From a virus, in IMG/VR virus record IMGVR_UViG_3300021087_000009, positions 11,252-75,251 of that record: DNA of 64,000 nt. One strand, written 5' to 3'. Below, one piece after another: positions 20,023 through 21,732 of this stretch. How positions within the stretch are numbered: the first letter of the stretch is position 1; each line of letters starts with the position of its first letter. Under the pieces are notes generated by a model. It ran no database searches and was not told the DNA's origin. It saw only the letters and a program-made list of their open reading frames with translations. Position numbers and translations under genes: made by a program.

Positions 20023-20475
20023 TCACCATTTTCGTTTTGCATCATTATCCTGTGTAAAGAAGATATTACGAATGTTATGTTGTGCTATAGCTTTCATACA
20101 ACCTTTACAGGGTTTAGCTAGGCCTCTAACCCACTTATTCTTTTTGTCTCGCTTTACTCTCAGAATATATAAGTCGCACTTTGCAAGTTGTTCTTTTGAT
20201 AGTAATTTTAATGCTTTATTAAATGCATCTATCTCAGCATGGAGGAATATCGATTCTTTATTGTTACCATATTCCTCCATAATAGGGTGTGTCTTATAAC
20301 TGTTTGTTCCAACAGTAATAATAGTTTTCTTATAAACAATAGCACAAGCTAATTTAAAACGCCCCTTAAGGCCAGGACTATCGATAGCATGTTGTTCTAG
20401 AATATCAAATATTCGTTGTGTAGGATTACGACGACCTTGTTCTGTAATCACACCAATCGGTAAATTGTGTAGCAT
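20023..20475 (-). CDS. cytidine/dCMP deaminase-like Zn enzyme
   Basis: HAE and PCxxC motifs. Confidence 0.8.
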   Translation of the reverse strand: MLHNLPIGVITEQGRRNPTQRIFDILEQHAIDSPGLKGRFKLACAIVYKKTIITVGTNSYKTHPIMEEYGNNKESIFLHAEIDAFNKALKLLSKEQLAKCDLYILRVKRDKKNKWVRGLAKPCKGCMKAIAQHNIRNIFFTQDNDAKRKW

Positions 20476-20494: not shown

Positions 20495-20564
20495 TGGTGG
20501 AGCATGATGGAATCGAACCACCTAATCAAACGTGCGACACTCGATCACTCCCAGATGATGCCCC
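20495..20564 (-). ncRNA. 70-nt alanine-type tRNA-like RNA (tmRNA-TLD mimic or atypical tRNA-Ala(CGC))
   Basis: GGGGCAT/ATGCTCC acceptor stem with G3:U70, ACCA end, GGTGG-TTCGATT-CCATC T-arm, shortened D region. Confidence 0.75.
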
Positions 20565-21157
20565 TATACAAGTTCCCCATCGAAAAGTTCTTGAAACTTG
20601 GCTGATTTTGATAGTAAGTATTTCACTTTTGGATTTTTCTTTTCCATTTTCTTATCTGTCATAGTTGCTAGTTCTTTAAAGCTATCACATCTAAAATTTT
20701 CAAAACTGCAATAGTCATCACGTCCTATATTATATCTTGAACGCATACGTTCTTGTAATCTATCTTTTGTTAGGTATCCTTTTTCAAGTCGATTCTCTCT
20801 ACCAACTTTAGTAACATAAAAATAATCTAGTCTATCAGTTATCTCATTGTAGACTACAATTCTTAAACTTCCAATCTTGTGTTCTATTTTATTAAGAGTA
20901 AATTGTGCATCATGTTTACGTAGTGTACAAGTTTTAGCATCTGACTTATCCTTATCATCAAAGTCATATCCAATTGCATCAACCCATTTATATCCACCTA
21001 CATTTGCCATTGCAAGTTCTACTAAGTGTTCTACATTATATGCATTAGGATAGGCTAAGGCATTTTTTTTATTAGCCTTAGTTGGAAAAAAATCTGGTAG
21101 ATATTGGAATAGTATTTCGTTTAAGATTCTATACTGCTTACCTTTGTTAGTATCCAT
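20564..21157 (-). CDS. hypothetical protein
   Basis: 197 aa, GAGG RBS, own TTGACA-N17-TATAAT promoter (~21198-21226). Confidence 0.65.
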   Translation of the reverse strand: MDTNKGKQYRILNEILFQYLPDFFPTKANKKNALAYPNAYNVEHLVELAMANVGGYKWVDAIGYDFDDKDKSDAKTCTLRKHDAQFTLNKIEHKIGSLRIVVYNEITDRLDYFYVTKVGRENRLEKGYLTKDRLQERMRSRYNIGRDDYCSFENFRCDSFKELATMTDKKMEKKNPKVKYLLSKSAKFQELFDGELV

Positions 21158-21242
21158 TATATCCTCGCCTGATATTATTAAAGTACGTTAGAATACAATT
21201 ATACAACAACAAAGAAGTTGTGTCAAGCATTTTTTTTAAAAA

Positions 21243-21598
<356 letters not shown>

Positions 21599-21602
21599 TG
21601 TT

Positions 21603-21632
21603 ATTTATAACACATATTAATAGTAAGGTCAA
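21603..21632 (-). promoter_or_regulatory. ssrA promoter TTGACC-N17-TATAAATA
   Basis: Sigma70 -35 with a -10 that also matches the T4-like late motif. Confidence 0.7.
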
Positions 21633-21732
21633 TAACCGGTATATTCAAAGAGTTTTGTTAAGATGTTAAATATTATTAGTACATTTAATTTGTACTAGCA
21701 CATTATATTAACAATCAATTTTGGAGATAGCG

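What the first reader, a model, noticed from the sequence alone, without database searches (positions are those of the whole stretch)
20495..20564. 70-nt alanine-type tRNA-like RNA resembling a tmRNA tRNA-like domain with no message, next to the phage's own tmRNA
Seen (minus strand): GGGGCAU-CAUCUGGGAGUGA-UCGAGUG-UCG-CACGUUUGA-UUA-GGUGG-UUCGAUU-CCAUC-AUGCUCC-ACCA. It has a 7-bp acceptor stem with the G3:U70 AlaRS determinant, discriminator A, encoded CCA and a normal T-arm, but only 35 nt between acceptor and T stem (about 41 in a normal tRNA). The layout matches the tRNA-like domain of the tmRNA 0.7-1 kb away: a nearly stemless D-loop sharing CUGGGA, then a helix, a 3-nt connector and the T-arm. 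Both stems differ from the tmRNA by compensatory changes, which argues against a decayed copy. An alternative fold gives a U-CGC-A (Ala) anticodon loop on a wobble-rich stem with a truncated D-arm. Inference: this could be a tag-less ribosome-rescue RNA, an SmpB/EF-Tu decoy, or a decoy for host tRNA/tmRNA nucleases, paired with a full tmRNA. Message-less tmRNAs are known from some mitochondria; I do not know of a phage example.
Basis: partly seen in the sequence, partly recalled or inferred. Interest (0 to 1): 0.85.

Follow-up and report, generated by a model that had tools for sequence, protein, structure and literature searches.

The report
Phage alanine tRNA without a D-arm
The 70-base RNA gene is real and conserved in several marine phages, but it reads best as an alanine tRNA that has lost almost all of its D-arm, a shape not known for tRNAs used in bacterial cells, and not as a message-less tmRNA.

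Summary
Window 20495-20564 (-) encodes a 70-nt RNA with a 7-bp acceptor stem, G3:U70, A73, CCA, a canonical T-arm and only 35 nt in between.

It is not chance or decay. Seven sequence variants occur in at least six unrelated flanks in marine viral and metagenome contigs. All 21 base pairs hold in every variant (147/147 cells), and four pairs show double compensatory changes.

The conserved features point to a tRNA, not a tmRNA tRNA-like domain (TLD):
- The hairpin is capped by a 7-nt loop, N-U-(C/U)GC-A-C. That gives U33, an alanine anticodon (CGC here, UGC in five variants) and A37. Only positions 32 and 34 vary.
- Two variants lie inside tRNA arrays, 2-5 nt after tRNA-Thr.
- Rfam's tRNA model gives 17.7 bits (cut-off 29) and its tmRNA model gives nothing. 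Genuine TLD-only RNAs score 43 bits (phage DS6A) and 57-65 bits (viral contig L014).

ARAGORN's D-stem is contradicted by the variants. At most an invariant 3-bp mini-stem remains, next to a 7-9 bp anticodon helix.

Best reading: a D-arm-less (or vestigial-D) tRNA-Ala of marine myoviruses. Adjacency to the tmRNA is specific to one lineage. A TLD-only phage RNA is already published (DS6A).

The parts
20495..20564 (-). Whole 70-nt tRNA-Ala-like gene. Element position i corresponds to window coordinate 20565-i.
   Evidence: Sequence. R1 model gives 97.6 bits and a single copy. RF00005 gives 17.7 bits end to end.
20558..20564 (-). Acceptor 5' strand GGGGCAU (positions 1-7). G3 pairs with U64, the canonical G3:U70.
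   Evidence: Seven pairs, invariant in all 7 variants.
20548..20557 (-). 10-nt linker CAUCUGGGAG (positions 8-17) that replaces the D-arm. It is invariant, and its GGG may contact the T-loop (inference).
   Evidence: Invariant columns. ARAGORN's D-stem is only 57% paired. A possible 3-bp mini-stem 8-19/9-18/10-17 is invariant and broken in V4.
20539..20547 (-). 5' strand of the anticodon helix (positions 18-26).
   Evidence: Pairs 20-26/34-40 are kept with covariation: 21-39 occurs as U-A, C-G and U-G. Pairs 18-42 and 19-41 are compatible in all variants.
20532..20538 (-). 7-nt anticodon loop G-U-CGC-A-C (positions 27-33). The anticodon CGC lies at 20534-20536.
   Evidence: In the 7 variants only loop positions 1 (G/A/U) and 3 (C/U) vary; U, G, C, A and C are invariant. 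ARAGORN calls Ala(cgc) at -ps80 and in -mt mode.
20523..20531 (-). 3' strand of the anticodon helix (positions 34-42). It abuts the T stem with 0-2 nt of variable region.
20506..20522 (-). T-arm: GGUGG, loop UUCGAUU, CCAUC (positions 43-59).
   Evidence: Three of the five pairs change on both sides, to ACAGG/CCUGU, in V4 and V7.
20495..20505 (-). Acceptor 3' strand AUGCUCC plus discriminator A and encoded CCA (positions 60-70).
   Evidence: Invariant. The phage's other tRNAs also encode CCA.
20564..21157 (-). Upstream 197-aa ORF of unknown function. Its TAG stop shares its G with G1 of the RNA.
   Evidence: No Pfam or PHROG match. The protein atlas gives only a weak lead to restriction-endonuclease-like clusters.
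21198..21226 (-). Perfect sigma-70-type promoter (TTGACA-17-TATAAT) that would drive ORF197, the RNA and the deaminase gene as one unit.
   Evidence: 12 of 12 matches. This is a consensus match only.
21202..21652 (-). Neighbouring permuted two-piece tmRNA. It is context, not part of the element.
20023..20475 (-). Downstream cytidine/dCMP-deaminase-like gene. Its ATG lies 19 nt after the CCA.

Best explanation
This is a phage-encoded alanine tRNA with a lost or vestigial D-arm. Its layout is a 7-bp acceptor stem, an invariant 10-nt single-stranded linker, a 7-9 bp anticodon helix with a normal 7-nt anticodon loop (CGC here, UGC in most relatives), almost no variable loop, a normal T-arm, and encoded CCA. 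In this phage it would be transcribed from the promoter at 21226-21198 as part of the ORF197-RNA-deaminase transcript and cut out by RNase P and 3' trimming (inferred). Host AlaRS would charge it through G3:U70, A73 and G2:C71; this follows from the established identity rules for tRNA-Ala and was not tested. EF-Tu would carry it through the normal acceptor/T-arm limb (inferred). It would read GCG, or GCA/GCG in the UGC variants (inferred from conservation of the anticodon loop). The helix made of positions 18-21 with 39-42 takes the place of the D-stem, as in D-arm-lacking mitochondrial tRNAs. That also gives it the same topology as a tmRNA tRNA-like domain. Its place beside the tmRNA reflects the usual clustering of phage tRNA and tmRNA genes, not a tag-less rescue RNA.
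For: - Spread: seven variants lie in at least 6 unrelated flanks. 100% of pair cells are kept, and 4 pairs change on both sides.
- Anticodon loop: N-U-(C/U)GC-A-C, with only tRNA positions 32 and 34 varying. V5's loop is UUUGCAC, as in other phage tRNA-Ala genes found.
- Context: V4 and V7 sit in tRNA arrays 2-5 nt after tRNA-Thr, on the same strand.
- Repertoire: no other tRNA-Ala is called in the 75-kb record or in those arrays.
- Gene finders: RF00005 aligns it end to end at 17.7 bits, making it the 4th best tRNA-like site in the record. ARAGORN's mitochondrial mode calls it 'D-loop mtRNA-Ala(cgc)' at the default threshold.
- Nearest relative outside the family: L092 (55 bits), a compact tRNA-Ala(UGC) with a 3-bp D-stem inside a tRNA array.
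- Feasibility: E. coli EF-Tu and ribosomes accept a D-arm-less tRNA without adaptation (PMC11551756).
- Expression: RNA-library contigs from 3 studies cover the locus. This is weak evidence, because they are contigs only.
Against: - Scores: the tRNA model score is below Rfam's cut-off, and default ARAGORN misses the element.
- Depth: the family is shallow (>=90% identity, 7 variants), so conservation of five loop bases is suggestive, not proof.
- Loop oddity: position 32 is G in 5 of 7 variants, unusual for elongator tRNAs by my own knowledge, and it could pair with C38.
- Stem strength: the anticodon stem is rich in G-U pairs.
- Codon demand: GCG is the rarest alanine codon in this phage (7%), so the need for a CGC tRNA is not obvious.
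- Missing data: nothing shows a mature 70-nt RNA, charging or decoding.
- Shared topology: the fold is equally that of a TLD, and in two lineages the gene sits 0.64 kb from a tmRNA.
Confidence: 0.6

Rival explanations
1. Tag-less tmRNA-like RNA (TLD mimic). It would be charged with alanine, would bind SmpB and/or enter stalled ribosomes, or would titrate SmpB, as proposed for the TLD-only RNA of mycobacteriophage DS6A.
For: It has the same topology as a TLD: an unpaired D region, a long helix and a T-arm. It lies 0.64 kb downstream of a permuted tmRNA in the V1 and V3 lineages. The 5' 17 nt are invariant. TLD-only RNAs do exist in phages: DS6A (PMC4131195) and L014.
Against: RF00023 gives no hit at E<=10, and other tmRNA models match only the T-arm/3' acceptor part at 9-12 bits. 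DS6A and L014 are recognised end to end by the same model. A conserved alanine anticodon loop is unexplained by this role. Four of six contexts have no tmRNA nearby, and two are tRNA arrays. The 3' half is about 63% identical to the neighbouring tmRNA by my own hand count, mostly at universal tRNA positions, so it is not a recent copy (sequences). No SmpB gene lies in the 75-kb record, but the record is only 21% complete.
Confidence: 0.15
2. Alanine donor or decoy outside translation. It would be an Ala-charged RNA dedicated to a non-ribosomal aminoacyl transfer, or a shape-altered tRNA-Ala that escapes or soaks up a host tRNA-targeting nuclease.
For: Only the alanine tRNA is reduced; the record's other tRNAs score 55.6-70.9 bits on the tRNA model, and the one I read through, tRNA-Arg(UCU), has a full D-arm. 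AlaRS needs only the acceptor stem (established knowledge). Phage tRNAs are known to evade host tRNases (PMC10264068, abstract seen).
Against: No aminoacyl-transferase (Fem/GNAT-like) gene is recognised next to it in any context. No alanine-specific anticodon nuclease is known to me. Anticodon conservation fits decoding more simply.
Confidence: 0.12
3. Non-functional remnant, or a mere RNase P processing signal that separates ORF197 from the downstream genes.
For: It sits with no gap after ORF197 and 19 nt before the next ATG, and has no strong promoter of its own. In the close V1-V3 comparison it is no more conserved (94.3%) than the flanking ORFs (94-96%).
Against: It is kept at >=90% identity in unrelated flanks where nothing else is shared. 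Every substitution in a stem preserves pairing. The anticodon loop is conserved, which a processing signal does not need.
Confidence: 0.08

Closest known systems
D-arm-lacking mitochondrial tRNAs (metazoan mt-tRNA-Ser(AGY), nematode tRNA-Ser)
   Same: The D-arm is replaced by a short connector. The anticodon helix is extended. The T-arm and acceptor stem are normal. ARAGORN's metazoan-mitochondrial mode calls the element a D-replacement-loop tRNA.
   Different: The element is encoded by bacteriophages and would act in bacterial cells. Its amino acid is alanine. It keeps a canonical T-loop and a GGG in the connector, so an elbow contact may survive. There is no common descent with the mitochondrial tRNAs.
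tmRNA tRNA-like domain, and TLD-only RNAs (mycobacteriophage DS6A; jakobid mitochondria; viral contig L014 found here)
   Same: G3:U70, A73 and CCA are shared. So are the unpaired D region, the helix leaving where the anticodon stem would be, and the T-arm.
   Different: The element has a conserved 7-nt alanine anticodon loop. It is not recognised by RF00023, whereas DS6A scores 43 bits and L014 57-65 bits. It also occurs in tRNA arrays.
Compact phage tRNA-Ala(UGC) genes of 71-73 nt (for example L092, L183, L099)
   Same: The acceptor stem, anticodon loop and encoded CCA are the same or similar. The D region is short and contains UGGGA. They lie in tRNA arrays. Default ARAGORN missed the three whose loci were scanned (L065, L092, L099); all are listed.
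   Different: These still have a Watson-Crick D-stem of 3-4 bp. In the window family that stem is absent, or reduced to an untestable 3-bp mini-stem with one G-U.
Engineered D-arm-less 'mini HisT' (Edelmann et al. 2024, PMC11551756)
   Same: It is a tRNA without a D-arm that E. coli EF-Tu and ribosomes accept.
   Different: It is artificial and a histidine suppressor. That paper states that all known bacterial tRNAs are cloverleaf. The element here is natural and conserved.

Membership tests
Canonical cloverleaf tRNA (Rfam RF00005) | 7-bp acceptor stem, discriminator base and 3' CCA | tested here: met
   7 of 7 pairs, invariant; ACCA is encoded.
Canonical cloverleaf tRNA (Rfam RF00005) | T-arm with a 5-bp stem and a 7-nt UUCRANY loop | tested here: met
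   5 pairs, 3 with double compensatory changes; the loop is UUCGAUU.
Canonical cloverleaf tRNA (Rfam RF00005) | Anticodon arm with a 7-nt loop, U33 and a purine at 37 | tested here: met
   the loop is N-U-(C/U)GC-A-C in 7 variants. The stem pairs are kept.
Canonical cloverleaf tRNA (Rfam RF00005) | D-arm with a 3-4 bp stem and a 7-11 nt loop | tested here: not met
   ARAGORN's D-stem is only 57% paired across variants. The alternative 3-bp mini-stem is invariant, broken in V4 and energetically second to the no-D fold in 6 of 7 variants. A vestigial stem cannot be excluded.
Canonical cloverleaf tRNA (Rfam RF00005) | Covariance-model score at or above the gathering cut-off (29 bits) | tested here: not met
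   17.7 bits, E 0.02, full-length alignment. The three canonical tRNAs of the record score 55.6-70.9 bits.
tRNA-Ala identity set | G3:U70, A73 and G2:C71 | tested here: met
   Read directly from the sequence and invariant in the family. That these elements suffice for AlaRS is established knowledge and was not tested here.
tRNA-Ala identity set | NGC anticodon | tested here: met
   CGC in V1 and V3; UGC in V2 and V4-V7.
tRNA-Ala identity set | Alanylation by AlaRS and decoding of GCN codons | not testable with these tools
   This needs biochemistry.
tmRNA TLD / TLD-only tmRNA (DS6A type) | End-to-end match to the tmRNA covariance model (both TLD halves) | tested here: not met
   RF00023 gives no hit on the element at E<=10. 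Only T-arm/3' acceptor partial hits of 9-12 bits appear with other tmRNA models. Positive controls: DS6A 43.2 bits and L014 57-65 bits.
tmRNA TLD / TLD-only tmRNA (DS6A type) | No anticodon; the helix continues into P2 or a free cap | tested here: not met
   The cap is a conserved 7-nt alanine anticodon loop.
tmRNA TLD / TLD-only tmRNA (DS6A type) | SmpB binding | not testable with these tools
   No SmpB gene in the 75-kb fragment. Binding was not assessed.
D-arm-lacking tRNA (mitochondrial type, as an architecture) | A connector in place of the D-arm plus an extended anticodon helix, with a retained T-arm | tested here: met
   ARAGORN -mt calls 'D-loop mtRNA-Ala(cgc)'. The 9-bp helix is 100% paired with covariation. 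This is an architectural class, not a claim of descent.

The most novel reading that the evidence does not exclude
The RNA truly lacks a D-stem (acceptor stem, 10-nt linker, 9-bp anticodon helix, T-arm) and still works as an elongator tRNA-Ala on bacterial ribosomes. That would make it the first natural non-cloverleaf tRNA used in bacterial translation. It would also be a living example of a tRNA-Ala with tmRNA-TLD topology, the kind of intermediate from which a tmRNA tRNA-like domain could arise.
Probability: 0.35. Interest if true: 0.8.

Novelty: new variant of a known kind. Interest (0 to 1): 0.62.

Why it matters
Default ARAGORN and Rfam's curated thresholds miss this gene, so phage tRNA repertoires in marine viromes may be under-counted; tRNAscan-SE was not available to test. 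[quoted passage not shown] A natural, conserved example from phages would show that evolution already uses that tolerance. It would also offer a ready-made small alanine tRNA scaffold. Because the fold is topologically that of a tmRNA tRNA-like domain yet carries an anticodon, it bears on how tmRNA could have evolved from tRNA-Ala.

Tried and rejected
- **attP or 3' tRNA fragment from an integration site.** Rejected: both acceptor strands are present and the whole RNA covaries.
- **Recent duplicate of the neighbouring tmRNA's TLD.** Rejected: similarity is limited to universal tRNA positions (sequences).
- **ARAGORN's relaxed cloverleaf D-stem (9-21, 10-20, 11-19, 12-18).** Rejected: only 57% of cells pair.
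- **Searches that found no family member.** GenBank phages by blastn. One genome for each of 185,579 GTDB species by pattern, which returned only an unrelated Dehalococcoidia hit and the L138 contig binned as Patescibacteria. IMG/VR patterns added only chance matches (L104, L107-L127).
- **RNA-library runs.** These are contigs only, so they cannot show the mature ends, the strand or the level. Uncovered parts mean nothing. One oligo-dT contig ends at 20498, the discriminator base, but a contig end is not an RNA end.
- **SmpB gene.** None in the 75-kb record, but the record is only 21% complete, so this says little.
- **tmRNA in L071's record.** None, but that record is a 15%-complete fragment. 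The metagenome records of L131, L136, L142 and L143 could not be searched whole.
- **ORF197.** No Pfam or PHROG match. The protein atlas gave only a weak lead to restriction-endonuclease-like clusters. It was not followed with a fold.
- **MFE z-score of the single sequence.** It is -0.08. Thermodynamics alone does not single the element out; the evidence is comparative.
- **Not run.** Complex prediction, structure prediction and the large protein searches were not used because the question concerns an RNA.

Full report
**1. The observation**

- It has a 7-bp acceptor stem with G3:U70, discriminator A and encoded CCA.
- It has a 5-bp T stem with loop UUCGAUU.
- Only 35 nt lie between the acceptor stem and the T stem.
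- Its first G is the G of the TAG stop of a 197-aa ORF (20564-21157). The next ORF, a cytidine/dCMP-deaminase-like gene, starts 19 nt after the CCA.
- A permuted two-piece tmRNA lies at 21202-21652 on the same strand.
- Between the tmRNA's terminator-like hairpin and ORF197 there is a perfect TTGACA-17-TATAAT site. The RNA is therefore probably made as part of the ORF197 transcript.
- The window belongs to a 75-kb IMG/VR virus record rated 21% complete, with 35% G+C.

**2. How the gene finders score it**

- Default ARAGORN and Rfam at gathering thresholds miss it.
- ARAGORN at an 80% threshold draws a tRNA-Ala(cgc) with a 4-pair D-stem containing one mismatch.
- ARAGORN's metazoan-mitochondrial mode calls a 'D-loop mtRNA-Ala(cgc)' at the default threshold, and its tmRNA mode finds nothing.
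- Infernal with RF00005 aligns the element end to end at 17.7 bits (cut-off 29). The record's three ordinary tRNAs score 55.6-70.9 bits.
- RF00023 (tmRNA) gives no hit on the element at E<=10. Permuted and beta tmRNA models match only the T-arm and 3' acceptor strand, at 9-12 bits.

**3. Relatives**

Pattern scans of IMG/VR and of JGI/ENA metagenome contigs recovered seven distinct 70-nt variants.

| Variant | Loci | Anticodon | Context |
|---|---|---|---|
| V1 | window, L015, L128, L137 | CGC | tmRNA - ORF197 - RNA |
| V2 | L061, L071, L130, L131 | UGC | just upstream of T4-like baseplate-wedge genes |
| V3 | L129, L133, L134 | CGC | tmRNA - ORF197 - RNA |
| V4 | L135, L141, L143 | UGC | tRNA array, 5 nt after tRNA-Thr(UGU) |
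| V5 | L136 | UGC | alone between ORFs |
| V6 | L139 | UGC | alone between ORFs |
| V7 | L142 | UGC | tRNA array, 2 nt after tRNA-Thr(UGU) |

- The V4 and V7 arrays run Gly-Thr-[RNA], continuing in L142 with Trp-Pro-Ser, and are followed in L141 and L142 by a glutamine riboswitch.
- L071 and L061 share nothing with the window except the 70 nt.
- No member was found in GenBank phages or in one genome for each of 185,579 prokaryote species.
- Holders of the locus are marine metagenomes from many studies.

**4. What is conserved**

Fifty-one of 70 columns are invariant. These include positions 1-18, the T-loop and the 3' acceptor strand with ACCA.

*The fold without a D-stem.* Acceptor stem, a 9-bp helix (18-26 with 34-42) and the T-stem pair in 147 of 147 cells.
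- Four pairs change on both sides: 21-39 occurs as U-A, C-G and U-G, and three T-stem pairs switch from GGUGG/CCAUC to ACAGG/CCUGU.
- Sliding the partners by 1-3 columns gives only 37-46% pairing.

*ARAGORN's D-stem.* It pairs in only 57% of cells.

*A third fold.* A 3-bp mini D-stem (8-19, 9-18, 10-17) plus a 7-bp helix is 99.4% paired.
- Its three D pairs never covary, and one is broken in V4.
- It lies 0.4-3.7 kcal/mol above the no-D fold in 6 of 7 variants.

The safe statement is this: the anticodon helix is 7-9 bp, and the D-arm is absent or reduced to a 3-bp vestige.

**5. The loop**

The cap of the helix is always 7 nt: N-U-(C/U)-G-C-A-C.
- Only the first base (G, A or U; tRNA position 32) and the wobble base (C or U) vary.
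- U33, G35, C36, A37 and C38 are fixed, while half of the stem positions around them vary.
- That is the pattern expected of alanine isoacceptors, not of a free hairpin cap.
- V5's loop, UUUGCAC, matches loops of other phage tRNA-Ala genes recovered.

**6. Comparison with real TLD-only RNAs**

The literature already records a phage TLD-only tmRNA, in mycobacteriophage DS6A. A similar TLD-only RNA expressed in E. coli inhibited tmRNA, perhaps by titrating SmpB (PMC4131195; PMC11915505, citing Mao et al. 2009).
- RF00023 finds the DS6A RNA end to end at 43.2 bits.
- It also finds a 73-nt TLD-only gene in viral contig L014 at 57-65 bits.
- The window RNA gets nothing from the same model.

By the only membership test available here, it is not a TLD. 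It is, however, topologically like one.

**7. Mechanism**

*Shown:* the sequence, its conservation, its pairing, the conserved alanine anticodon loop, its placement in tRNA arrays, and its presence in RNA-library contigs from three studies.

*Inferred from established tRNA-Ala identity rules:* charging by AlaRS through G3:U70, A73 and G2:C71.

*Inferred:*
- RNase P and 3' trimming release it from the operon transcript.
- EF-Tu carries it, since the acceptor/T limb is normal.
- It decodes GCG (GCA/GCG for the UGC variants).

Feasibility is supported by Edelmann et al. 2024 (PMC11551756). They showed that E. coli EF-Tu and ribosomes accept a D-arm-less tRNA without adaptation, with stability against PNPase as the limiting factor. 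They also state that all known bacterial tRNAs are cloverleaf.

Positions 18-21 pair with 39-42, nucleotides that in a normal tRNA would be the 3' D-strand and the variable loop. This builds a helix about as long as the normal D-stem/anticodon-stem stack. The invariant GGG in the linker could still contact the T-loop. Both points are inference.

**8. Weak points**

- The family is shallow (at least 90% identity).
- Position 32 is G in five of seven variants, which is unusual for elongator tRNAs and could pair with C38 (my own knowledge).
- The anticodon stem is rich in G-U pairs.
- GCG makes up only 7% of alanine codons in the record's ORFs.
- No data show a mature, charged RNA.
- In the close V1-V3 comparison the RNA (94.3% identity) is no better conserved than the flanking ORFs (94-96%). 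The case for selection therefore rests on the cross-context copies.

**9. The link to the tmRNA**

- The adjacency holds only in V1 and V3, the two CGC variants.
- Phage tmRNA genes often sit near tRNA genes. L065 has a tmRNA immediately after tRNA-Met, and L099 has one 6 kb from its array.
- The tag reading frame of the window's tmRNA uses GCG for 2 of its 6 alanine codons.
- The GCG in the final Ala-Leu-Ala-Ala is kept in V3. By my own binomial estimate from the 7% genome-wide frequency, the chance is about 0.06, and the lineages are not independent.
- At most this hints that the CGC tRNA serves the tag.
- RNase P cleavage at G1 would remove the last base of ORF197's stop codon and leave a non-stop mRNA, a natural tmRNA substrate. 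This is an idea, not a finding.

**10. Context and verdict**

Two-piece tmRNAs, a glutamine riboswitch, bS21 genes and tRNA-Arg(UCU) are described for marine pelagimyophage-like phages such as Melnitz (PMC9004378). The window's phage looks similar, so streamlined marine heterotrophs are plausible hosts (inference).

Verdict:
- The TLD-only reading is not supported.
- The best explanation is a conserved, D-arm-less or vestigial-D tRNA-Ala.
- This is a new structural variant of a known kind of gene, of real interest to tRNA specialists but unproven in function.

Noticed in passing
L014:1418-1490 (+) (IMGVR_UViG_3300034684_000299, 185-kb contig): A 73-nt TLD-only mini-tmRNA. RF00023 aligns both TLD halves end to end at 57-65 bits, with only 10 nt in place of the 310-nt body. 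This is a second phage example besides DS6A.
   Followed up: partly
L132:1784-1854 (-), L138:119-189 (+), L140:6468-6538 (-), L145:119-189 (+): A separate 71-nt alanine-acceptor RNA (G3:U70, CCA) from groundwater contigs, one of them binned as a Patescibacteria MAG. It has a 7-bp helix capped by GUCGAGA, so the triplet in the anticodon position is CGA (serine codon UCG), not alanine. It is either a recoding tRNA or a non-decoding mimic.
   Followed up: no
L057:6452-6525 (-), L006:12966-13039 (+), L099:8407-8478 (+), L092:1938-2009 (-), L065:169-241 (+), L096:5687-5753 (-): Short (67-74 nt) alanine-type genes, five of them inside or beside phage tRNA arrays (L096 has no called tRNA nearby), all missed by default ARAGORN. 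No tRNA-Ala is called in any of these loci. Compact tRNA-Ala genes of 71-73 nt with 3-4 bp D-stems are common in IMG/VR.
   Followed up: partly
window 20564-20566 (-): The TAG stop of ORF197 overlaps G1 of the RNA, and this is conserved in V3. RNase P cleavage would leave ORF197 mRNA without a complete stop codon, a potential substrate for the adjacent tmRNA.
   Followed up: no
window 21198-21226 (-): A perfect sigma-70 consensus promoter (12 of 12) directly after the tmRNA's terminator-like hairpin (21246-21263).
   Followed up: no
window 21293-21380 (-); L133, L129: The tmRNA tag frame uses the rare GCG for 2 of its 6 alanine codons, and the GCG in the terminal ALAA is conserved in V3. Between V1 and V3 the tmRNA gene is far more diverged (77.8% identity, with indels) than the flanking ORFs (94-96%).
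   Followed up: partly
L006, L008, L099 (tRNA arrays): ARAGORN calls tRNAs with a CUA anticodon (labelled Pyl) in these arrays. They are probably amber suppressors of TAG-recoded phages.
   Followed up: no
L141:3204-3254 (+), L142:4059-4109 (+): A glutamine riboswitch (RF01739, 51 bits) directly downstream of the tRNA arrays that carry the V4 and V7 copies.
   Followed up: no
G000:C1:6635-6711 (-) (outside the window): ARAGORN calls a tRNA-Arg with anticodon GCG, which is unusual. The record also carries tRNA-Thr(UGU) and tRNA-Arg(UCU), but no canonical tRNA-Ala.
   Followed up: no
window 20540: An RNA-library contig (run X16) carries C>T on the plus strand, which is G25>A in the RNA. This is the same pair-preserving change (G-U to A-U) seen in variants V2 and V4-V7.
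   Followed up: no
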